A stretch of 64,000 nt of DNA, taken from NCBI GenBank assembly GCA_000004985.1, contig GG738876.1. The stretch is one strand, 5' to 3'. Shown here in pieces: positions 53,164-64,000 of the stretch; the stretch's first letter is position 1, and each line of letters starts with the position of its first letter. A program made the translations under genes and the position numbers. This DNA comes from Naegleria gruberi. Its lineage: Eukaryota. The notes under the pieces were generated by a model. That model was given only the letters and a program-made list of their open reading frames with translations. It searched no databases and was not told where the DNA came from.

Positions 53164-55236
53164 ATGTCATCAACAATGAACAACAGCAACAGGGAGGAGG
53201 TAACGCCTCTGATACAGAACACTACTAGTGTAGTATCATCAACATCGATAAATAATGGCAATTATCAACAACAAGACACAACACTGATTAGGAGGAATGT
53301 ATCTCCTTCTACATTAAAAAGAGCTGATATTGGAAAAGACTATTATACAGACAATCATAGTAATCGCTCTAGCTCTAGTGATTTATCTAACCTCGAGAAA
53401 CAACCAATTTACAAAGCTAAAGGAACTAAAAAACAAAAATTTCTATTCCATTTCTTTAATATTTCATGCCCACTTTTCATTGTAGTACTGGTTGCTTTAG
53501 GACTGGGAGTGGGATTGATTTTTATACTGTCGAGGACACAAACTGAAGTACAACCAACTGGTACTAGGGCCGCTGTGGCAAGTGATAGTACGATTTGTTC
53601 CGAAATGGGATTGAAAGTCATAAAGGAAAAGAAAGGAAATGCTGTTGATGCAGCCATTGTAGTTGCTTTATGTTTGGGTGTCACTAGACCATTTGCTAGT
53701 GGAATAGGTGGAGGTGGATTTATTACTATTTTCATGAATGAAACAAAGACTGTGGATTTTATTAATTCAAGAGAAACTGCTCCTAGTGCTGCCAGTCAGG
53801 ATATGTATGAAAATAATTATGATGAAAGCGTATTTGGTGGAAAGTCCATTGCTGTTTATGGAGAAATTAGAGGATTACATACAGCTCACAAACTCTATGG
53901 TAAATTACCTTGGAAGGAGTTATTCACTGATGTTATCAATATTGCCAGAAATGGTTGGATTGTTGAGCCGTTGTTGGCTGTGCGATTATCACAGGATGAT
54001 ATTCTTAAATTCCCAACATTGGTACAATTTACAACCATTGGTTCTGATGGAAAGAGAAGAGTTTATCATGAAGGTGAATTAATTAAGAGAACTGATTTGG
54101 CAAATACTTTGGAGAAAATTGCTTCAGATGGTCCAAACATTCTCTATGAAGGTCCAATTGCTCAAAAGATTGTAGAAGAAATACAACAACAAGGTGGCAT
54201 TATTACATTGGATGATTTGAAGAACTATCAACCTGAAAGACCTTTCTATGATGAAAATCCAATTATTTCTCAAAAAGACATGACATTGGAATTGAATGAT
54301 TTTAAGGTGATTTTACCTCCACCACCATCTGCTGGACCTGTTATCAAGTTTATTTTGAGTATTTTGAATAATTTCAAGATTGGTGATAATTCACCAATGG
54401 GTCTTAACTATCACTATATTTTGGAAGCTTTGAAATTTGGATTTGGACATAGATCCAATCTAGGAGATGTTAATTTCTTACCTAAGGAAAATGTTACAAA
54501 ATATATCATTAATCAATTACTAAGTGATAGTTATGCCTCTAGTATTGCATCTGAGAGGGTTTCTCCATCAAGAACATTCCCATGGTCACATTATTATTCA
54601 GATAATTATGCACCTGTTAAGGATAAGGGTACATCCCATTTCTCTGTTATTGATGAAGATGGAAACTCTGTTGCCATGACCACTACAGTCAACCATAACT
54701 TTGGAAGTAAGGTTGCTAGTGCATCAACAGGTATTGTCTTTAATAACCAAATGAATGATTTCACAGTAGATCTTCACAAACCAAATCAATTCGGATTACC
54801 ACCATCTGCAGCTAATGTTATTGCTCCAGGCAAACGACCATTGAGCTCAATGTCACCTGCTATTTTCCTTGATAAGAGTGGAAATAGGGTCAAGTATATT
54901 ATTGGAGCTTCAGGAGGACCAACAATTATCAGTGCAATTATTGAAGTTTTTTATTCAATTGAAAAGTTTAAAGTCCAACCAAATCTCGCAGTTGCACTTC
55001 CAAGACTTCATGCTCAACCTGGTTCAGATGTAGTCAAAATGGAAGAGGGTTTCAATAGACAAGTTATCACTGCTCTACAAGAAAAGGGACATACCTTTGA
55101 ACCTGTTCAAATTCTTCCAGATGGCCATACTATAGGATGCTGTCAAGTCATTCAAGTTAGCAGCACTGAAAATGACCAAAATCTTTTCCTTCCTGGAACA
55201 GATCCAAGAAAATTAGGTAGTCCCGCTTGCTTTTAA
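53164..55236 (+). CDS. GGT: Gamma-glutamyltranspeptidase. Single exon with an N-terminal signal-anchor TM.
   Basis: 'GTSHFSVIDEDGNSVAMTTTVN' (catalytic Thr at the autocleavage site), 'GIGGGGF', 'ASGGPTIISAI' and 'PSSMSPAIF' are GGT motifs. TM 'FIVVLVALGLGVGLIFIL' lies near the N-terminus. Confidence 0.9.
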   Translation: MSSTMNNSNREEVTPLIQNTTSVVSSTSINNGNYQQQDTTLIRRNVSPSTLKRADIGKDYYTDNHSNRSSSSDLSNLEKQPIYKAKGTKKQKFLFHFFNISCPLFIVVLVALGLGVGLIFILSRTQTEVQPTGTRAAVASDSTICSEMGLKVIKEKKGNAVDAAIVVALCLGVTRPFASGIGGGGFITIFMNETKTVDFINSRETAPSAASQDMYENNYDESVFGGKSIAVYGEIRGLHTAHKLYGKLPWKELFTDVINIARNGWIVEPLLAVRLSQDDILKFPTLVQFTTIGSDGKRRVYHEGELIKRTDLANTLEKIASDGPNILYEGPIAQKIVEEIQQQGGIITLDDLKNYQPERPFYDENPIISQKDMTLELNDFKVILPPPPSAGPVIKFILSILNNFKIGDNSPMGLNYHYILEALKFGFGHRSNLGDVNFLPKENVTKYIINQLLSDSYASSIASERVSPSRTFPWSHYYSDNYAPVKDKGTSHFSVIDEDGNSVAMTTTVNHNFGSKVASASTGIVFNNQMNDFTVDLHKPNQFGLPPSAANVIAPGKRPLSSMSPAIFLDKSGNRVKYIIGASGGPTIISAIIEVFYSIEKFKVQPNLAVALPRLHAQPGSDVVKMEEGFNRQVITALQEKGHTFEPVQILPDGHTIGCCQVIQVSSTENDQNLFLPGTDPRKLGSPACF

Positions 55237-55770: not shown

Positions 55771-57480
55771 TTGTACAGTCGAAAAAAACACCACAACACA
55801 ATAATGTTCCAATCTCAAATACCTTCTCAACAACTCTCAGCGATATGTATGAGAGAACAACAATCTCAACAGCCACAACAACATTATCCTAGAGATGCAT
55901 TAGAACTAAATCAACGATTCAAGGATCATCAACAATTTAAAGGTGATCATCCTTTTCATCACAAAGAGCTAGATTCATTAATTTATCAACAACCTCAACA
56001 ATACAATAAGGAAGATTTTGCTTTTCAAAACTCAGAAAACACTACAGCTCCATTAAATGTGATGGCAGTAATTTCAACAAGTTCCTCAATAGAACCAAGG
56101 TTAAGACTGGACATGTACAACAATGCATCTGGCCATTCCTCCTCGCAAGCGGCCACAGATTCAATCAAAATGGAAACAAAACAAGAGCTACCCATGCAGA
56201 TGCTCAATAAGGATAACAAAAATTCTCTCATAACCATGAGCACAACTCCCCATACTAATATTAACAGCAATAACCAACATGCAACTAATTTATTTCAACA
56301 TCATGTGAACATGCAGAATAATAACCATTCAGCTTCACCTATGAACCATCACCATTCTACAGATTCGATATCCTCACTCAATCATAATACTACAACATGT
56401 AAACAAAATTCTCAAAATTCCTCATGTCACATCCAACCATCCACTCAACAACAACCCTTCTTCCACAATTCACAGCCAATTAATCAAGAGACGCAACCAC
56501 AACAAAACACAGTTCAAGACAATTCAAAAAATAGGCCACAAAGGAGAAATAGTAACAGCTCCTGTTCTCCAAAGAAACGAACCACATTTGGGATGTCTAA
56601 TCATTATCAACAACAACATGTTGGTGGCACATCAGTAAGAGGTGATGGTGGCCAACAATCTTACATGCCATTTAATGCTTCTCCATCCAAATATAATAAC
56701 AATTTAAACACATCTACATGTGGTGAAATAATATCGAATAGCAATGGAACCACTTCTGAATATCATCAATTTATGAACAATAATTATTCATTGCAACAAC
56801 GAATTGAAACATCATCTCGATCAACAACTTCCCTACAAAATGTTTCTCCAATGCATGCTCAAAAGTCCGTGCAAGTTTCACCACCTCCATCTTCAAACAA
56901 CAGCACCACCACATTCAACATTCAACAGGAAAAGATTAAAAAACCAAGAAAAACCATCAAGAGAAAGTATCAATTCAAGAATGTCAAGTCAGGAGAGAAT
57001 GTTAGATCTAATTCCTCAAGTCCATCTTCTCCATCCTCCTCTCAGAATCAACATTCTAATGATTCTAAATGTAATTCCATTGAGACTGTATCCTATTATA
57101 CAACTACAGATGGAAAGGAATTGGATTTAACTGGCTATTATCAACATCAATTACAGTATACAACTTTTGATTTCTATAATAATTCATCAGTATCAATTGT
57201 AAAGGCAAATCCAACCTTTGATGTAAAGAGTTTCAAGAGGAGTGTTGATTCAATTTCAAAGGATGAATTACTCAGAGTTTTACATTTAACTCAACAACAG
57301 GCGAGTACAATATTGGGCTGCAGTGTTTCAACCATTAAAAGAAGATTTTATGGTTTGAGAAACGAGTTGGGTTTAACCAAGTGGCCAAATAATTACTTTG
57401 AATATAGTCATATGAAATTGTTTGAGGAGATTTATCCACTTTCCTTAAACTTTATTTTGAATAAGGGTGAGAGCAGATAG
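55771..57480 (+). CDS. Second RWP-RK-like regulator, a paralog of 50127..52919. The true start is possibly Met at 55804.
   Basis: 'ISKDELLRVLHLTQQQASTILGCSVSTIKRRFYGLRNELGLTKWP' is the same domain as in the other gene. The N-terminus is Q/N/H-rich. Confidence 0.6.
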   Translation: MYSRKKHHNTIMFQSQIPSQQLSAICMREQQSQQPQQHYPRDALELNQRFKDHQQFKGDHPFHHKELDSLIYQQPQQYNKEDFAFQNSENTTAPLNVMAVISTSSSIEPRLRLDMYNNASGHSSSQAATDSIKMETKQELPMQMLNKDNKNSLITMSTTPHTNINSNNQHATNLFQHHVNMQNNNHSASPMNHHHSTDSISSLNHNTTTCKQNSQNSSCHIQPSTQQQPFFHNSQPINQETQPQQNTVQDNSKNRPQRRNSNSSCSPKKRTTFGMSNHYQQQHVGGTSVRGDGGQQSYMPFNASPSKYNNNLNTSTCGEIISNSNGTTSEYHQFMNNNYSLQQRIETSSRSTTSLQNVSPMHAQKSVQVSPPPSSNNSTTTFNIQQEKIKKPRKTIKRKYQFKNVKSGENVRSNSSSPSSPSSSQNQHSNDSKCNSIETVSYYTTTDGKELDLTGYYQHQLQYTTFDFYNNSSVSIVKANPTFDVKSFKRSVDSISKDELLRVLHLTQQQASTILGCSVSTIKRRFYGLRNELGLTKWPNNYFEYSHMKLFEEIYPLSLNFILNKGESR

Positions 57481-57898: not shown

Positions 57899-60516
57899 TC
57901 ATTTACTCATATCAATGGAAATATCATCAGTGAGGGTTTGGGTGCTGTGTGTAGAGATAGATGAAATACTCTCTCTTATCTTTTTGATAGCAAAGTCTAG
58001 TAAACCAACGATTGGAAAATCAAGCCATATTTTCTCATCATTATTCATTTCGTTTGTCCATAGAATCAATCTTTGAAGGAGGAATGATTTTTCTTCACTA
58101 GAAATTTGGGATGGATTAGTAAGGCATTTGGAGAGCTCTTGCCTTAGTTCTATCCTCTCTTTATCACATGGTTCAATATAGATTGGTAAAGTGAGCATTG
58201 AGACAGACTCTCTAAATTGGTTTCCTAATTCAAAGTGTTGGACATAGTACCTTCTTGGTGAGTTAGAATCAATGGCCCAGTAAAGGGTATGCGTTCCCTC
58301 TAAGCCTTTGAGCTCAAAATTACCCATATTATCAAAGTGAATCTGTCCATCTTGGACTAGTTCTTTAAATTGCTCTAGTTCGTCTTTGAAAGTCGTAATA
58401 AAAGGAGTATCTTTAGGCAGACTATTGGTAGATGAAAGAGCTGTGGCGCGGTGCTTAATAAAACTTTGGACATCTGAACTGACATATACTCTACCACCAT
58501 GTGATTTGCTTTCAGTTCTTGCAGCTTGGTTGACTGCAGTGCCAAAGTAATCATATCTCTTGGTGGTTGGGTCAAATTGGGATTCAATTTCTTTTCCAAA
58601 GTGAACGCCCATTTTAACTCTTGGTCCTTTGTAAATAATTTCATTATTCCACTTGACTTCTTTCATGTCTGGAAATTCCAACATTTCAGGTGTCCAATGT
58701 CCTTTCAATAAGCCGTTTTGAATAGCAAAACAGCAACCTAGTGCTTCTATTGGATCATTGAATGCGATCATAAAACTGTCTGATTGGGTTTTCACTTCAT
58801 ATCCTTTAAACTTTCGAATATTTTCTCGCACTATTCTATGGTGAATGGCCAATACTTTCTTCATCAAATCTGAATCTAAAGTCCACATTAAGGATGAATT
58901 TTGTATGTGAGTGAAAACAATGCAAATAGGAGCTACTTTTGGAGCTAGACGATTTTCTCTCTTTCTAATCGAATTCTTTCTAACAACCCATCCAATCAAG
59001 AACACAAAAATTCCAACCAATAATATTGCAATAGTAAAACTGACAACACTGATGGAAATAATGAATTCGTTTCTCTTCTCAATTGGTAATACAGGCTCAG
59101 CAGTCCAAGCTTTCCACTTGGCTGTATTGTTTGGGTTTGATAACCACTTACAAGCAGCATCTTCTAAAGTCATTGAATTGTAAGCAACATATCCCATCAT
59201 GGTTACTTGATCTCTACCTCTATAATTCAAATTTTTAAGAAAGTTTTGAACACTTGAAGAGAGAGAAGAGACAGCACTCGTTTGGAGCTTACTATATGTT
59301 GACAAAGGGTAATCACAATCAACCAATCCATTGGCAATATTGTGAGCTGTATGACAGCTATCAGTAAATTGAGGAAGATAGATTCTAGATGGTGGATTAG
59401 GTCTACTGAATAATTGATGTGGAAACCAAAAATATGAAACCATCTCTTTTCGTTGTTGTTGAGCGTTTTGTAAATTTTCAATGAGATAGGTTTCAGTATC
59501 ATTATCAGGTGCATATTCCAACTGCAAATTCAACTTTAAATTCTTGATAATCTGATCATCATAATTCACCCAAGTTTTAGAGCCACTGACCATTCTTGTC
59601 ATGTTTGAAAGTCTAAAGTATCTGTAGTTATTTTGAACTGCATCCTTCATGAAATTTGGAATGAAAAACCCAATTTGGCCACTCGGACCCAAATCGCCAA
59701 TGTCTGTAATATGTTTACCATTAACCACATATTTTCTAAGATGAAAAGATTACTTGTTAGAAAGATCAGCGCATGCACTTACTTGTAATTTTCAAAGTTA
59801 GATAATTTCCAGTATTCTAACAACGCAATTGGACGTGTGGCTCCTTCCTTTTCCATAAGTTCCAAAGAATCCACAATATTTAGTTTTAAAATATCAACGC
59901 AAACTCCTAATTTTTCCTCGAGTATTATTGTTGCAAGAGCATTATTCATCGAGCTCGCCAGCCAATTATTTTCAATAAGAGTTATTCTTGGTGAAAAAGA
60001 GGAACAGTGGCTTGAAGATGCATCTTCAGGTAGACAACTGGCAACTGTTTTTCTAGTCGACGAAATATGTTGATACTGATGGGTTTGCATGTTTTCCAAT
60101 GGCGATCCACTCACAAAATAATAAGTTTCGTAATCGTGATTGTCAAGCTTATCAGCACCAATAAACATGCTAATAACAAATACAAAAAGTATTAATTTTG
60201 TGATAATGGATAATCTGGACCGTTTCCAATAATGTAATCCAACAAAACTACTACTACTAATATTCCTCGTAATCATAATATTCAATATAAAATAGCAAAT
60301 CCACCACATAATTCTCGAATCAAACATGATAAAATCACAATATGAAATTTCATCCATTTGTATTTCAAACTTTCTTTGATTAATCGTGTATTCATCATCT
60401 CCTACTTCTTGTTCATTCCGTCTTCCCTCCAGAAGCAGCATTAATACGTTGTTGTTGCCAGCACAAGTTGTATCGGAAAGAACATGTTTGCCCATTTTTT
60501 TTCGTTCTCTCGTCAT
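57899..60516 (-). CDS. Receptor-type class III adenylate/guanylate cyclase. Order from the N-terminus: signal-anchor/TM, extracellular OpuAC/ProX-like substrate-binding domain, TM, cyclase catalytic domain, C-terminal tail. Two exons: 59783..60516 and 57899..59735, with a 47-nt intron at 59736..59782.
   Basis: Cyclase core 'ICIVFTHIQNS...YEVKTQSDSFMIAF...GPRVKMGVHFG...YDYFGTAVNQAARTES' fits the class III motifs (F.DI.GFT, GD, G.H.G, N..R). The extracellular part 'ITLIENNWLASSMNNALATIILEEKLGVCVDI...LLEYW...YFWFPH' resembles PF04069 OpuAC (type II PBP). TM 'FIISISVVSFTIAILLVGIFVFLIGWVV' precedes the cyclase domain. GTAAGT donor is in phase. Confidence 0.75.
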
Positions 60517-60835
60517 GTAAGATCGTGATGCCTAGCCTTATCTTCTTTTTTATACCAAATCCAGCTTGCGCGCCAAAGATTCTCTCATTACAGCGAATTT
60601 AGAGAGTTTCATTAAGGAAATGATGCAATAGAATATTGTGTTATTTATTTGTAATGGATTATATTCTATCATCTCCCAGTGCAGTTCTTCGACATTTCGT
60701 TTATATTGAATTGAAAGAAGTATTTATGCTTGAAGTATAGATAACTTACAATTTTGTAACTTTTAAATTCTGAATGAGTTGAGTAATGTTGTGATCGAAA
60801 ATGAACTTTTTTTCTAAAAATAAAAATATAAAAAA

Positions 60836-62368
60836 ATGGCATCAAAATCATCAAAAGAAACAAGAGGTTCCCATGTTGATGCAATCAGAGAAGAATTAGA
60901 ACAAGGCAAGGGACGTGATAATTTGATCGGTAAAGAATTTATTAAAAATAATAACAGAAATTATTTGGAATCTGGGTTAAAAACAAATATTAGACCCTTG
61001 ACAGAAAGTGATGATTATGAAATTTATTTTAGCGGCAAATCAACGAATGGCGCATTATTGACAGGATCAACGGAACCAAAGCAATTGGATGGGTTTGAAA
61101 AGTTTACAAAATATGATAGTGATAATGCAAAGAAATTATCAATCCCGAAAGATCAAGCTTTGAAATTTATTGATATTGGACTACAATTTACAGTGATAAT
61201 GACAACTAGGAATGAAGCTTTTTTATATGGAGACTTTGTATATGGATCAAGTTCGGCTTCTATTAATCCTCTTGGAAGGCAATTATCAATTCTAATGACG
61301 CTCACACCAGAAGTTAAACTTAATTATTTCCCTGATGAACCTGTTGCCATGTTGTGTGGAGAACAATTTGTTGCAGTATTGGATAGCTGTAATAGATTGT
61401 GGTATTGTGGTATTGAAAAGTTTGGAACTGCTAATAGTAGTTGTACTTATGATTTTGTGGAAATTGGATTGAAAAAATATTTGGAGACTGAATTTGTTGA
61501 TGAACCTACACATATCACTCACTTTAGAGTTGGAGGAAGACACTTGTGTTTTTGTATTAATAATAGGACTATTATTTCAACAGGTAAGTGACAATTCTTT
61601 CCATTTCATTCGAATACTCATATTATTCAAAGGTGCAAACTATTATGGACAGGTAGGTCATTAGCTTTAAATTAAATACTCAATCCAAAAGTTGGGAATT
61701 ATAAACACACCAGATTTGACACCACCAGTTCCCCCAAGTACTGTACTGACTGTTGCTAGTACACTTTCTCGCTATACATTCGTTAAAACTTGGAATGCAG
61801 ATGGAAAGTATAGAGTAAGAGACGTTGCTTGTTCTGGAAATATGACAGCTATTCTAACAGGTAAGCTCTAATCATAACACCCAAATTTTAACATTAATTA
61901 TTAGAATGTGGAAAATTATTTAAAACCTCTAATGCAGCTATTGCATCTGAGTCAATTGAATCAGTTGTTCTGGATGGATTTTCACTTACTACCATCTCTG
62001 GTAATTGGACTCATATTCTGGCACATACAAGCAAAAACCAAATGATGGGCGTTACGGATAATCATGTTACTGAATTCTTTAGCGAATCTCCTCTAAAGAA
62101 TTGTGATAATTTACACATCTCAACAGGAACCAATTCTAACAATACCTATTTTATTTACTCAAATAATGAATTATATGAACCACATAATCCAAAGGCAGTT
62201 CTCAAATCTTCCCTACCAATAGTTGTTTGTAAATTGACCTCTGAAGCAACTATGGTTTTATGTATGAATTTTAAGAGCAACAAGTCAATTCTTGCAATGA
62301 AACGAAACCTTCTCCAATGTACAGTATCACAAGGGCTATCAGATGTTCTAATCAATGCCCAACAATAA
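60836..62368 (+). CDS. RCC1-repeat (beta-propeller) protein. Four exons: 60836..61583, 61633..61652, 61692..61860, 61905..62368.
   Basis: Spliced '...GGRHLCFCINNRTIISTG|GANYYGQ|LGIINTPDL...VRDVACSGNMTAILTG|ECGKLF..' shows RCC1 signatures (G.N..GQLG; ..C.G.H...L). GTAAGT/GTAGGT/GTAAGC donors with AG acceptors are in phase. Confidence 0.6.
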
Positions 62369-62370
62369 AT

Positions 62371-64000
62371 TTATGCTCCAGATTGAATCAATTCTTCAGG
62401 GCATGACATTACTGCGATAGAACTAGAAGAAGAAAGCGACTCTTTTCTACAGGGTTGAGCGACACTATTTCGTCTTTTCCTGTTATCTGGACGGATAATT
62501 GTATCTTCATATGCATATTCTTTGTTATCTGAAACAATGTTATCCATTTCAGCAGGAAGATAATGAGAGATGACAATTGGTATGAGATGCTTCAATTCCA
62601 ATTCAGTCCATGCATCCTTTTCTTCTTCGGTATCATTATTCCACAATACAAGCCTATGCAGAAGTTTACTCTTCTCATTTTCATTCCATTTCGATGGATC
62701 ACTTATACATGATGCACACGATTGTTTCAATTCCATTCGTTCCTTATCAATTTTCTCTCTCAACAATGGAACTGATAATCCAGAGTCAATTCTAACATGA
62801 GGCAACAATTCGAATTGTTGAATGTAGGAAGTTCGAGGGGAAGTTGTATCCATAATCCAAAACAAAGTGTGATTACCTTCCAATCCTTTCAAAATAAAGT
62901 TTCCCATATTTTCGAATTGGATTTTTCCAGAGTAAAGCAATTGTTTGAATTGAAAGATTGGATCCTTATGAATGGGAAACCCCTTATCCATGCAAATATT
63001 GCAACGAGAAGCTCCTCCCATTTGATGCTTTAGGTGGTCGTGAATATTTGAGCAAATGTAAATTCTTCCTCCTTGAGCTTGATTTTCAGTTCTAGATGCT
63101 TGGTTGACCGTCGTGCCAAAGTAATCATATCTCTTGGTGGTTGGATCAAAATGAGCTTCCACTTCACTGCCATAATGAAGGCCCATTCTAACTCTTGGTC
63201 CTTTGTAAATAATTTCATTATTCCACTTGACTTCTTTCATGTCTGGAAATTCCAACATTTCAGGTGTCCAATTTCCTTTCAACAAATCATTCTGAATAGC
63301 AAAACAACAACCAATTGCTTCTATTGGGTCACTGAAGGCAATCATAAAGCTGTCTGATTGAGTTTTCACTTCATATCCTTTAAACTTTCGAATATTGTCT
63401 CGAACAATTTTGTGATGAATGGTAACAACTTTCTTCATCAAATCTGAATCCAAAGTCCACAACAGTGAAGCATTCTGAATATGAGTGAAAACAATGCAAA
63501 TAGGTGGTGCTTTTGGGGCCAATCTATTTTCTCTCTTTCTAATCGAATTCTTTCGAATGCAAAATCCACAGCAAAAAACACAAAAACCAATTAGTATAAT
63601 AGCAAGTGTAAACCCCACAACAGTCATTGAAATAATAAAGGCATTACTCTTCTCCGGTTGAAAAGGTGGCTCTGAAATCCAACTCTTCCATCTCTCTGTA
63701 TTATTGCCTTTCAAAATCCAAGTACAGGCAGCATCCTCTTTCGACATTTTATCATACGAAACTAAGCCTAACAGTTCAATCTGGTCAGCATTCGTCAGTT
63801 TCATCCTTTCCAAAAAGTTTTGCACTTTTTCAGGAAAACTCAACACTGCCCTAGTTTGCAGTTTACTGTAAGTAGTCATGGCAAAATCACAATCCACCAA
63901 ATTATTCTCCACATTGTGAGGTGATACACATTCTGCAGTAAATGGTGGAAGTGTCACACGTTGTGGAGCATTAGGTCTACTGAATAATTGATGAGGTGTG
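62371..64000 (-). CDS. Second receptor-type class III cyclase, a close paralog of 57899..60516. It is partial, and its N-terminal extracellular part continues beyond the window end.
   Basis: Protein is collinear with the first cyclase (same TM, 'ICIVFTHIQNASLLWTLDSDLMKKV', 'YDYFGTTVNQASRTE'). There are stretches of >60 bp nucleotide identity (for example tcatgtctggaaattccaacatttcaggtgtccaat in both). The end of the OpuAC-like region is visible at 63650-64000. Confidence 0.75.
   Translation of the reverse strand, partial: TPHQLFSRPNAPQRVTLPPFTAECVSPHNVENNLVDCDFAMTTYSKLQTRAVLSFPEKVQNFLERMKLTNADQIELLGLVSYDKMSKEDAACTWILKGNNTERWKSWISEPPFQPEKSNAFIISMTVVGFTLAIILIGFCVFCCGFCIRKNSIRKRENRLAPKAPPICIVFTHIQNASLLWTLDSDLMKKVVTIHHKIVRDNIRKFKGYEVKTQSDSFMIAFSDPIEAIGCCFAIQNDLLKGNWTPEMLEFPDMKEVKWNNEIIYKGPRVRMGLHYGSEVEAHFDPTTKRYDYFGTTVNQASRTENQAQGGRIYICSNIHDHLKHQMGGASRCNICMDKGFPIHKDPIFQFKQLLYSGKIQFENMGNFILKGLEGNHTLFWIMDTTSPRTSYIQQFELLPHVRIDSGLSVPLLREKIDKERMELKQSCASCISDPSKWNENEKSKLLHRLVLWNNDTEEEKDAWTELELKHLIPIVISHYLPAEMDNIVSDNKEYAYEDTIIRPDNRKRRNSVAQPCRKESLSSSSSIAVMSCPEELIQSGA

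What the first reader, a model, noticed from the sequence alone, without database searches (positions are those of the whole stretch)
57899..64000. Tandem pair of receptor-type cyclases with an extracellular OpuAC/ProX-like (glycine-betaine/choline-binding) domain
Both cyclase genes encode a hydrophobic N-terminal anchor, then a ~250-aa domain, then a single TM and a class III catalytic domain. The ~250-aa domain has hallmarks of bacterial type-II periplasmic binding proteins for quaternary amines (OpuAC: ITLIENNWLAS..ALATIILEEKLG..LLEYW..YFWFPH). Eukaryotic receptor cyclases normally use type-I PBP (ANF-receptor) ectodomains. An OpuAC-type sensor wired directly to cNMP synthesis would be an osmolyte/quaternary-amine chemoreceptor architecture that I cannot place in any described family. 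The two copies share >60-bp identical nucleotide runs, which indicates recent duplication or gene conversion. An RCC1-repeat gene sits between them. In both copies the first metal-binding Asp of the F-x-D-I motif reads F-T-H-I, an Asp-to-His change, while the second Asp, the Asn and the Arg are retained. This suggests altered metal coordination or regulation.
Basis: partly seen in the sequence, partly recalled or inferred. Interest (0 to 1): 0.75.

Follow-up and report, generated by a model that had tools for sequence, protein, structure and literature searches.

The report
Naegleria betaine-type receptor adenylate cyclases
Two neighbouring Naegleria gruberi genes encode membrane receptors that join a bacterial-type binding domain for betaine- or choline-like compounds to a cAMP-making enzyme domain lacking one essential metal-binding residue, so they probably work only when paired with a complementary sister protein.

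Summary
The window is Naegleria gruberi. Gene 1 (60516..57899, minus strand, one 47-nt intron, 856 aa) has an N-terminal anchor, an OpuAC-family ectodomain, one TM helix, a class III cyclase domain and a conserved C-terminal tail. Copy 2 (62371..>64000) is cut by the window end, so only its last ~130 ectodomain residues are visible.

The ectodomain call holds. A model of the N. fowleri relative has pLDDT 95 and best matches TmoX/TMAO, DmpX/DMSP, OpuAC, ChoX and ProX. Gene 1 keeps the four-Trp cage but not TmoX's TMAO-specific Glu.

The cyclase domain is closest to the Trypanosoma brucei receptor cyclases GRESAG4.1/4.3. FTHI (Asp to His) is real.

- Eleven Naegleria relatives carry His or Ser at that position and keep Lys, second Asp, Thr, Asn and Arg.
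- A second Naegleria clade keeps both Asp but has Arg to Lys (plus Asn to His in the N. gruberi member).
- Outgroups are fully canonical.

This complementary pattern suggests C1/C2-like heterodimers rather than altered metal chemistry.

The duplication is old (Ks ~1.5). An 84-nt identical tract points to local gene conversion.

OpuAC ectodomains on eukaryotic class C GPCRs are already published. OpuAC plus cyclase appears in databases only through automatic annotation, and I found no paper on it. Verdict: a new variant of a known kind, of moderate interest.

The parts
59783..60516 (-). Gene 1, exon 1 (aa 1-244 plus two bases of codon 245). It encodes the cytosolic N-terminus, the TM1/signal anchor and the first part of the OpuAC-like ectodomain, including cage Trp185 (ENNW) and Trp236 (LEYW).
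   Evidence: The ORF is, the splice junction, and the codon coordinates. The start codon itself is not verified.
59736..59782 (-). Gene 1 intron, 47 nt, GTAAGT...TAG.
   Evidence: The spliced product ...ENYKKYVVNGKH... aligns without a gap to P0002 and P0003.
57899..59735 (-). Gene 1, exon 2 with the stop codon (aa 245-856). It encodes the rest of the ectodomain, TM2, the cyclase domain and the conserved C-terminal helical tail.
   Evidence: The structure model has cyclase-core pLDDT of about 90.
60145..60219 (-). Gene 1 N-terminal hydrophobic anchor (aa 100-124, SRLSIITKLILFVFVISMFIGADKL).
   Evidence: Kyte-Doolittle scan, coordinates.
59090..60009 (-). Gene 1 OpuAC-family ectodomain (aa ~170-460; the span includes the intron). 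The four cage Trp codons are 59962-59964, 59809-59811, 59570-59572 and 59426-59428.
   Evidence: Pfam OpuAC scores 23.5 bits against a cut-off of 21.2, E 4.8e-5. A Naegleria-only profile finds bona fide OpuAC proteins. The fold is, and the pocket mapping.
58982..59065 (-). Gene 1 TM2 (aa 469-496).
   Evidence: It is predicted as one long helix running into the cyclase domain.
58265..58936 (-). Gene 1 class III cyclase catalytic domain (aa 512-735). Key residues are His521 (58907-58909) in place of the first metal Asp, Lys560, Asp564, Thr644, Asn647 and Arg651.
   Evidence: Pfam Guanylate_cyc E 1.3e-19. PDB sequence match to 1fx2/1fx4 at E 4e-26 with FTHI aligned to FTDI. Foldseek top hits are 1fx2/1fx4. 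Residue table.
58615..58698 (-). 84-nt tract identical to 63189-63272 in copy 2. It encodes the insertion between helix alpha3 and the next strand of the cyclase domain, and is a probable gene-conversion tract.
   Evidence: Synonymous difference is 0.00 here against 0.4-1.0 elsewhere.
60836..62368 (+). Intervening gene, four exons (60836-61583, 61633-61652, 61692-61860, 61905-62368), 466 aa. It is a divergent RCC1-like-domain protein and is probably not functionally part of the receptor pair.
   Evidence: Pfam PF25390 E 1.4e-14, below the cut-off.
62371..64000 (-). Copy 2, 3' part only. It covers the C-terminal ~130 aa of the ectodomain, the TM helix (63556-63639), the cyclase domain (62830-63507, His codon 63481-63483), the C-terminal tail and the stop codon. 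It is identical to residues 97-638 of the public N. gruberi protein P0001.

Best explanation
These are two old paralogues of a Naegleria family of receptor-type class III adenylate cyclases. The predicted topology is: cytosolic N-terminus, TM anchor, extracellular OpuAC-family Venus-flytrap domain, one TM helix, cytosolic cyclase domain of the trypanosome GRESAG4 type, and a helical C-terminal tail.

Shown:
- The architecture.
- The fold of the ectodomain.
- Conservation of the four-tryptophan cage that binds trimethylammonium or dimethylsulfonium head groups in TmoX, DmpX, OpuAC and ProX.
- Loss of the first metal-binding Asp (His in both copies), with Lys, the second Asp, Thr, Asn and Arg retained.

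Inferred:
- The ectodomain closes around a small quaternary-ammonium or sulfonium compound. The exact ligand is unknown. It is not TMAO-specific in the TmoX manner.
- That movement is passed through the short TM-to-cyclase link to a cyclase dimer.
- Because each active site of a class III dimer takes its two Asp from one subunit and its Lys/Thr/Asn/Arg from the other, a homodimer of these proteins would lack a competent metal site.
- They therefore act as the 'C2-like' subunit of a heterodimer. The 'C1-like' partner would be the second Naegleria OpuAC-cyclase clade (P0003 in N. gruberi), which keeps both Asp but has lost Arg (Lys), and Asn (His) in P0003.
- The result would be one catalytic site and one degenerate, possibly regulatory, site, as in mammalian membrane adenylate cyclases, soluble guanylate cyclase and chytrid RGC/NeoR.
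- The product is most likely cAMP (Lys plus Thr).
For: Organism and genes.

Ectodomain:
- Pfam OpuAC is above its cut-off on the isolated ectodomain.
- A profile built only from Naegleria sequences retrieves 961 proteins. These include standalone binding proteins with OpuAC E-values down to 2e-51, and proteins with two to four OpuAC copies reaching 1e-90 to 1e-140.
- The model has pLDDT 95 and pTM 0.90.
- The 45 best Foldseek PDB hits are all binding proteins of this fold group. The annotated ones bind quaternary-amine or sulfonium compounds. They are led by TmoX/TMAO 4xz6 (E 2e-20, TM 0.74/0.78) and RnDmpX/DMSP 7yle.
- The TmoX pocket W55/W102/W177/W222 maps to W/W/W/W in gene 1. Glu131 maps to Ile (pocket definition from PMC8918994).

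Cyclase domain:
- Pfam E 1e-19.
- Best solved relatives by sequence and by fold are T. brucei GRESAG4.1/4.3.

Complementarity:
- Eleven Naegleria clade-A sequences read H/S-K-D-T-N-R.
- In clade B, P0003 reads D-K-D-N-H-K and P0159 reads D-K-D-N-N-K.
- Willaertia, Entosiphon, MMETSP and metagenome members are canonical.
- Both clades are found in N. gruberi and in N. fowleri. No clade-B member was seen for N. lovaniensis.

Purifying selection on both copies: Ka/Ks about 0.22.

Precedent: receptor cyclase paralogues that are inactive alone and active as heterodimers with one catalytic and one regulatory site are described for chytrid RGC/NeoR (PMC12264004).
Against: - No ligand, enzyme activity or physical interaction was tested.
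- Gene 1 has Phe-Phe where nearly all relatives have Trp-Tyr/Phe (GFF versus GWY). It also has Asn where most cyclase-fused relatives have Arg at pocket position 106. Its pocket therefore differs from its relatives'.
- Arg to Lys in clade B is a conservative change and may not abolish catalysis. One clade-B-like metagenome sequence (P0011) is fully canonical.
- His at the first Asp position is conserved in 7 of 7 members of one subclade across three species. This hints at a specific role, not mere decay.
- Clade A has several members per species and clade B only one was found. The stoichiometry and partner choice are therefore conjecture.
- Gene 1 is absent from the public protein set, and expression is unverified.
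Confidence: 0.55

Rival explanations
1. These are homodimeric active cyclases in which His (or Ser) replaces the first Asp as a metal ligand. This would change metal preference or regulation, for example toward Mn2+/Zn2+ or pH sensitivity.
For: - His is strictly conserved in seven sequences from three Naegleria species.
- All other catalytic residues are kept.
- Ka/Ks of about 0.22 shows that the proteins are under constraint.
Against: - The sister subclade has Ser at the same position, the residue found in the non-metal-binding C2 domain of mammalian cyclases (FASI; from my own knowledge of that family).
- The first Asp bridges both metal ions in the two-metal mechanism, which an imidazole cannot do (established knowledge).
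- A complementary clade with intact Asp pairs but altered Arg/Asn exists in the same genomes.
Confidence: 0.15
2. These are catalytically dead pseudo-cyclases. The proteins bind ligand but signal by another route, through the conserved C-terminal tail or as scaffolds or decoys, or they only modulate other cyclases negatively.
For: - An essential metal ligand is lost in the whole clade.
- A conserved C-terminal region of about 120 aa has no Pfam match and is predicted to be helical.
Against: - Lys, the second Asp, Thr, Asn and Arg are retained in all 11 clade-A sequences, which is hard to explain without a nucleotide-handling role.
- Nonsynonymous divergence is lowest in the cyclase core, at pn 0.04-0.07.
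Confidence: 0.18
3. The ectodomain keeps the OpuAC fold but no longer binds a small quaternary amine. It would recognise another cue or serve only in dimerisation or structure, so the proteins are not osmolyte or amine chemoreceptors.
For: - Gene 1 departs from the family consensus at GWY (GFF) and at pocket position 106. The TMAO-contacting Glu is absent in nearly every relative scanned; among the proteins tabulated only TmoX and DmpX have it.
- No curated NCBIfam equivalog matches.
Against: - All four cage Trp are kept in gene 1 and in nearly all relatives, across very divergent eukaryotes and output domains.
- All annotated top structural matches bind quaternary-amine or sulfonium ligands.
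Confidence: 0.12

Closest known systems
Trypanosomatid receptor-type adenylate cyclases (T. brucei GRESAG4.1/4.3, ESAG4; PDB 1fx2, 1fx4)
   Same: - The overall logic is the same: an extracellular periplasmic-binding-protein-like domain, a single TM helix, a class III catalytic domain and a C-terminal extension.
- The catalytic domain is the best sequence match (E 4e-26) and the best fold match.
- Both have a long insertion after helix alpha3 with a similar start (LKGHWTPEMLE versus LHHDWGTNALD).
- Both lineages belong to Discoba.
   Different: - The ectodomain here is a type-II OpuAC-family domain, not the type-I LivJ/ANF-like domain. No ANF_receptor or Peripla_BP_6 hit was found.
- The first metal Asp is replaced (FTHI versus FTDI).
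- An N-terminal TM anchor follows about 100 cytosolic residues, in place of a plain signal peptide.
TmoX (TMAO-binding protein of Ruegeria pomeroyi, PDB 4xz6) and RnDmpX (DMSP-binding, PDB 7yle), subgroups of the OpuAC/ProX family
   Same: - These are the best solved relatives of the ectodomain by profile (E 5e-67 and 7e-41) and by fold.
- The rectangular four-Trp box is conserved.
   Different: - Those are soluble bacterial ABC-transporter binding proteins. Here the domain is fixed between two TM segments of a eukaryotic receptor.
- TmoX Glu131, which hydrogen-bonds the TMAO oxygen, is Ile in gene 1 and Val in copy 2. Phe106 is Asn in gene 1.
Pseudo-heterodimeric class III cyclases: mammalian membrane adenylate cyclase C1/C2, soluble guanylate cyclase alpha/beta, chytrid RGC/NeoR
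   Same: - Catalytic residues are split between two different cyclase domains, giving one active and one degenerate site.
- Clade A (FTHI/FTSI, VNxAxR) resembles C2. Clade B (FTDI, GNMVHIANK in P0003) resembles C1.
- The chytrid precedent is in PMC12264004.
   Different: - Here the two halves would be separate single-pass receptors, each with its own OpuAC ectodomain.
- Clade A keeps the second Asp.
- Heterodimerisation is inferred, not shown.
Eukaryotic class C (glutamate-family) GPCRs with an OpuAC N-terminal domain (Allomyces macrogynus and other lineages; PMC3251606, PMC3971589)
   Same: - The same kind of ectodomain is used as a eukaryotic receptor sensor.
- My profile search found 17 OpuAC + 7tm_3 proteins among the long hits scanned.
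   Different: The output is a 7TM G-protein-coupled module, not a directly fused cyclase.

Membership tests
Class III nucleotidyl cyclases (Pfam PF00211) | Sequence and fold of the cyclase homology domain | tested here: met
   Gene 1 scores 71 bits and copy 2 scores 75 bits against a cut-off of 21.9. PDB sequence and fold matches are to class III cyclases.
Class III nucleotidyl cyclases (Pfam PF00211) | Complete catalytic set in one chain: two metal Asp, substrate Lys/Glu, Asp/Thr/Cys, transition-state Asn and Arg | tested here: not met
   The first Asp is His in both copies. The other five residues are present (K560, D564, T644, N647, R651).
OpuAC/ProX family of substrate-binding domains (Pfam PF04069) | Significant match to the family model | tested here: met
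   The isolated gene 1 ectodomain scores 23.5 bits against a cut-off of 21.2, E 4.8e-5. The full-length protein scores 18.3 bits, below the cut-off. Relatives P0002 and P0003 carry PF04069 in precomputed annotation. A Naegleria-only profile hits proteins with OpuAC E-values down to 2e-51 for standalone proteins and to 1e-140 for multi-copy proteins.
OpuAC/ProX family of substrate-binding domains (Pfam PF04069) | Two-lobe type-II binding-protein fold | tested here: met
   The model of the N. fowleri relative has pLDDT 95. Its TM-score is 0.74-0.81 to TmoX, DmpX and lactococcal OpuAC. It was modelled on a 47%-identical relative, not on gene 1 itself.
OpuAC/ProX family of substrate-binding domains (Pfam PF04069) | Aromatic cage for the trimethylammonium or dimethylsulfonium head group | tested here: met
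   By alignment only, TmoX W55/W102/W177/W222 map to gene 1 W185/W236/W300/W348. The geometry was not inspected because no coordinates were available.
OpuAC/ProX family of substrate-binding domains (Pfam PF04069) | Binding of a quaternary-ammonium or sulfonium compound | not testable with these tools
   This needs ITC or thermal shift on the expressed ectodomain.
TmoX (TMAO-specific binding proteins) | Glu131 hydrogen bond to the TMAO oxygen, plus Phe106 and Phe220 | tested here: not met
   In gene 1 Glu131 is Ile, Phe106 is Asn and Phe220 is Tyr (pocket definition from PMC8918994).
Trypanosomatid receptor adenylate cyclases (GRESAG4/ESAG4) | Catalytic domain of that subtype following a single TM helix | tested here: met
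   The best PDB matches by sequence (E 4e-26) and by fold are 1fx2/1fx4. The TM helix lies directly upstream.
Trypanosomatid receptor adenylate cyclases (GRESAG4/ESAG4) | Type-I (LivJ/ANF-like) extracellular binding domain | tested here: not met
   Pfam finds OpuAC only, with no ANF_receptor or Peripla_BP_6 hit. The fold matches are to type-II proteins.
Pseudo-heterodimeric cyclases (C1/C2-type) | Complementary distribution of catalytic residues between two different cyclase domains encoded in the same genome | tested here: met
   Clade A reads H/S-K-D-T-N-R. Clade B reads D-K-D-N-H-K (P0003, N. gruberi) and D-K-D-N-N-K (P0159, N. fowleri).
Pseudo-heterodimeric cyclases (C1/C2-type) | Physical heterodimer with activity that depends on both partners | not testable with these tools
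   No multimer prediction or experiment was available.

The most novel reading that the evidence does not exclude
Naegleria senses extracellular quaternary-ammonium or sulfonium compounds, such as prey- or osmolyte-derived betaines, choline or carnitine. It would do so through a small family of ligand-binding 'C2-like' OpuAC receptor subunits, each of which must pair with a single shared 'C1-like' OpuAC-cyclase subunit (P0003) to form one active cAMP-producing site. This would be a co-receptor design not described for receptor cyclases. It would also be the first protist receptor cyclase family whose ligand class can be predicted from sequence.
Probability: 0.3. Interest if true: 0.72.

Novelty: new variant of a known kind. 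Interest (0 to 1): 0.55.

Why it matters
- **A testable ligand class.** To my knowledge the ligands of protist receptor adenylate cyclases, including the large trypanosome families, are still unidentified. PMC7719234 calls the signals 'still unidentified'. Here the sensor domain belongs to a structurally well-understood family with an intact four-Trp cage. The candidate ligands are therefore few and cheap to test, which makes de-orphanising a protist receptor cyclase directly feasible.
- **A natural experiment in cyclase evolution.** The complementary loss of catalytic residues in two Naegleria clades shows a possible route from homodimeric to heterodimeric cyclases. It parallels the origin of mammalian C1/C2 enzymes and chytrid RGC/NeoR.
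- **A wider receptor module.** The same ectodomain subfamily is fused to class C GPCR, phosphodiesterase, kinase-cyclase, RGS and RasGAP modules in other eukaryotes. OpuAC-type sensing therefore appears to be a general but little-studied eukaryotic receptor module.
- **An annotation gap.** Gene 1 is missing from the public N. gruberi protein set. The public model of copy 2 starts inside the ectodomain, which hides this architecture in databases.

Tried and rejected
- **Missing 5' part of copy 2.** The look-up of encoding contigs for P0001 returned nothing on record, so the N-terminus of copy 2 stays unseen.
- **Spliced gene 1 ectodomain refused.** I used the N. fowleri relative as the modelled sequence and included the gene 1 exon pieces as alignment rows.
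- **Word-indexed homologue searches.** The searches with gene 1 alone and with the four-sequence alignment found only 3 and 5 proteins. The exhaustive representative search and a broader alignment were needed to see the family.
- **Pfam scan size limit.** A scan of all 150 representative hits exceeded the size limit. I scanned the long hits only.
- **AlphaFold database fold library.** It was not available.
- **NCBIfam.** It gave no equivalog-level assignment for the ectodomain or for its closest standalone relatives. All hits were far below the cut-offs, so ligand specificity could not be assigned this way.
- **C-terminal tail.** Pfam found nothing in the conserved tail.
- **Literature.** Searches for OpuAC with cyclase, PF04069 with PF00211, and Naegleria cyclase with periplasmic binding protein found no description of this architecture.
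- **Recent tandem duplication.** Rejected: Ks is about 1.5.
- **Gene 1 as a pseudogene.** Rejected: the spliced ORF is intact, the motifs are conserved and Ka/Ks is about 0.22.
- **TmoX orthology.** Rejected: Glu131 is absent.
- **More copies in the window.** Rejected: there are only two cyclase and OpuAC hits in the six-frame translation.

Full report
**Origin and gene structure**

The window is AT-rich (about 33% G+C) and eukaryotic. Translation of 62374..63999 on the minus strand is identical to residues 97-638 of the public protein P0001, 'predicted protein [Naegleria gruberi]'. The window is therefore N. gruberi.

Gene 1 consists of two minus-strand ORFs (59779..60516 and 57899..59728). 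A 47-nt GTAAGT...TAG intron (59782..59736) joins them in frame. The spliced 856-aa product reads ...ENYKKYVVNGKH... across the junction and aligns there without a gap to its relatives. No public protein matches gene 1 more closely than 60%, so it appears to be unannotated.

Copy 2 runs off the window at 64000, inside its ectodomain. The public model P0001 also begins inside the ectodomain (MDIGDLGP...). A six-frame scan with local profiles finds no further copy in the window.

**Anatomy of gene 1**

| Feature | Position | Evidence |
|---|---|---|
| Cytosolic N-terminus | aa ~1-99 | |
| Hydrophobic anchor | aa 100-124 | |
| Extracellular region (three N-glycosylation sequons, six Cys) | aa ~125-465 | |
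| TM helix | aa 469-496 | |
| Linker | ~15 residues | |
| Class III cyclase domain | aa 512-735 | |
| Conserved C-terminal tail | ~120 residues, no Pfam match, predicted helical | |

**The ectodomain is a real OpuAC-family domain**

- Pfam OpuAC scores 23.5 bits (cut-off 21.2, E 4.8e-5) on the isolated ectodomain. It falls just below the cut-off on the full protein.
- Relatives P0002 (N. fowleri) and P0003 (N. gruberi) carry PF04069 plus PF00211 in precomputed annotation.
- A profile made only from the Naegleria sequences was searched against 1.84 billion representatives. It found 961 proteins at E <= 0.001. These include standalone proteins with Pfam OpuAC E-values as low as 2e-51, and proteins with two to four OpuAC copies reaching 1e-90 to 1e-140.
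I therefore modelled the 47%-identical N. fowleri ectodomain, using an alignment that included the gene 1 exon pieces. The model has pLDDT 95.0 and pTM 0.90.
- The 45 best Foldseek hits in the PDB are all binding proteins of this fold group. The annotated ones bind quaternary-amine or sulfonium compounds. The leaders are TmoX with TMAO (4xz6; E 2e-20, TM 0.74/0.78) and RnDmpX with DMSP (7yle). They are followed by lactococcal OpuAC, ChoX, ProX, EgtU and OpuBC. A profile search of PDB sequences gives the same order.

**The binding pocket**

The TmoX pocket is Trp55, Trp102, Phe106, Glu131, Trp177, Phe220 and Trp222. The four Trp form a rectangular cation-pi box, and Glu131 bonds the TMAO oxygen (PMC8918994). 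By profile alignment, gene 1 compares as follows:

| TmoX | Trp55 | Trp102 | Phe106 | Glu131 | Trp177 | Phe220 | Trp222 |
|---|---|---|---|---|---|---|---|
| Gene 1 | Trp185 | Trp236 | Asn | Ile | Trp300 | Tyr | Trp348 |

- The visible part of copy 2 has Val, Trp, Tyr and Phe at the last four positions.
- The cage is thus intact in gene 1, but the TMAO-specific Glu is not. The same holds in nearly all relatives.
- Most cyclase-fused relatives have Arg at position 106.
- Gene 1 also has GFF where the family has GWY/GWF.
- NCBIfam offers no equivalog.

A quaternary-ammonium or sulfonium ligand is therefore likely, but its identity is open.

**The cyclase domain**

Pfam Guanylate_cyc is clear for both copies. 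The best solved relatives are the T. brucei receptor cyclases GRESAG4.1 and 4.3, by sequence (E about 4e-26) and by fold. Both proteins share a long insertion after helix alpha3.

In those alignments FTHI lies over FTDI, so the first metal-binding Asp is His in both copies. The remaining canonical residues are present: Lys560, Asp564, Thr644, Asn647 and Arg651. Lys plus Thr suggests ATP as substrate (from general knowledge of class III cyclases).

**Family context of the Asp-to-His change**

Residues at the six canonical positions (first Asp, Lys, second Asp, Thr/Asp, Asn, Arg):

| Group | Members | Pattern |
|---|---|---|
| Naegleria clade A, His subclade | 7 (gene 1, copy 2, P0002, P0182, P0184, P0185, P0186) | H-K-D-T-N-R |
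| Naegleria clade A, Ser subclade | 4 (P0155, P0006, P0156, P0007) | S-K-D-T-N-R |
| Naegleria clade B, N. gruberi | P0003 | D-K-D-N-H-K |
| Naegleria clade B, N. fowleri | P0159 | D-K-D-N-N-K |
| Willaertia, Entosiphon, MMETSP transcript, metagenome proteins P0011 and P0016 | several | fully canonical |
| Metagenome protein P0015 | 1 | E-K-T-L-N-R |

A neighbour-joining tree separates the two Naegleria clades.

In a class III dimer, each active site takes its two Asp from one subunit and its Lys, Thr/Asp, Asn and Arg from the other (established knowledge). Clade A is therefore C2-like and clade B is C1-like. P0003's GNMVHIANK resembles the C1 motif GNDVTLANH, and FTSI resembles C2's FASI; both comparisons come from memory of the mammalian sequences.

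A clade A homodimer would have no competent metal site. A clade A/clade B heterodimer would have one complete site and one degenerate site. A published precedent exists in chytrid rhodopsin guanylyl cyclases. There RGC2 and NeoR catalytic domains are inactive alone and active together, with one catalytic and one putative regulatory site (PMC12264004).

I consider this the best explanation. It remains an inference, for three reasons:
- Arg to Lys is a conservative change.
- P0011, which groups with clade B, is canonical.
- The strict conservation of His in one subclade suggests a specific role, perhaps in the degenerate site.

**The duplication**

- The two copies share 58% amino-acid identity over 504 aligned codons. 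Ka is about 0.34 and Ks about 1.5 (saturated), giving Ka/Ks of about 0.22. The duplication is old and both copies are under purifying selection.
- The longest identical run is 84 nt (58615-58698 = 63189-63272). Within it, synonymous divergence is zero, against 0.4-1.0 elsewhere. This is best explained by a short gene-conversion tract.
- The plus-strand gene between the copies (four exons, 60836..62368) is a divergent RCC1-like-domain protein. Nothing links it functionally to the cyclases.

**Comparison with what is known**

- The logic of binding-protein ectodomain, single TM helix and GRESAG4-type cyclase matches the trypanosomatid receptor cyclases. The ectodomain, however, is type II (OpuAC) instead of type I.
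- OpuAC domains on eukaryotic receptors are not new. They were reported on class C GPCRs in Allomyces and other lineages (PMC3251606 and PMC3971589).
- Among the long hits of my profile search that I scanned, I found 17 proteins with 7tm_3. I also found about 11 clusters with a cyclase domain, three with PDEase_I and three with a protein-kinase domain; one of the kinase proteins (from Chromosphaera) also has a cyclase domain. Others carry RGS, RasGAP and TRP-like modules. They come from organisms such as Hondaea, Mastigella and Chromosphaera.
- The OpuAC + cyclase architecture is present with automatic domain annotation in N. gruberi, N. fowleri, N. lovaniensis and Willaertia, and my own scans show it in an Entosiphon transcript. 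I found no paper that describes or tests it.

**Verdict**

The finding is real and its central structural claim is correct. It is not an isolated oddity of this locus. It is a member of a Heterolobosea/Discoba family, and of a wider, barely studied use of OpuAC-type sensors in eukaryotic receptors.

What my analysis adds:
- the corrected gene model and the annotation gap;
- the intact four-Trp cage without TMAO specificity;
- the age of the duplication and the conversion tract;
- the complementary degeneration of catalytic residues, which suggests obligate heterodimers.

I rate it a new variant of a known kind, with interest 0.55.

Noticed in passing
window 57899..60516 (gene 1) and 62371..64000 (copy 2): Gene 1 has no counterpart in the public protein collection; the best hit is 60% identical. 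The public model of copy 2 (P0001, 638 aa) starts at an internal Met inside the ectodomain, so its precomputed Pfam annotation lists only the cyclase domain. The reference annotation hides the OpuAC + cyclase architecture at this locus.
   Followed up: partly
window 62368..62373: The stop codon of the plus-strand RCC1-like gene ends at 62368. The stop codon of minus-strand copy 2 occupies 62371-62373. These convergent genes are 2 nt apart, so their 3' UTRs must overlap.
   Followed up: no
window 60517..60835: Only about 320 bp separate the divergent start codons of gene 1 (minus strand) and the RCC1-like gene (plus strand), which may be a shared bidirectional promoter region.
   Followed up: no
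window 55771..57480 (+): An ORF of 569 aa is rich in Gln, Asn, Ser and His. It has a C-terminal RWP-RK-like DNA-binding motif (Pfam 24.3 bits, below the cut-off of 29.3).
   Followed up: no
window 53164..55236 (+): An intact gamma-glutamyltranspeptidase gene with an N-terminal TM anchor (Pfam E 2e-145).
   Followed up: no
proteins P0183 (1692 aa), P0187 (1511 aa), P0188 (1396 aa) from ENA/JGI assemblies: These relatives of the Naegleria-type cyclase domain carry three to five tandem cyclase domains in one polypeptide. Some of the domains are canonical and others are fully degenerate. They have no OpuAC domain.
   Followed up: no
proteins P0010, P0033, P0027, P0028, P0038, P0022, P0039 (representative search hits): The same OpuAC-like ectodomain subfamily is fused in other eukaryotes to 7tm_3 (Hondaea), to PDEase_I (Mastigella) and to protein kinase plus guanylate cyclase (Chromosphaera). 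It is also fused to Ephrin_rec_like plus a TRP-like channel, and to PAS plus an ANF-type second binding domain.
   Followed up: partly
N. fowleri proteins P0185 and P0186: Two clade-A OpuAC-cyclases of N. fowleri lie on the same contig (locus tags FDP41_009830 and FDP41_009781) but are not adjacent, unlike the near-tandem pair in N. gruberi.
   Followed up: no
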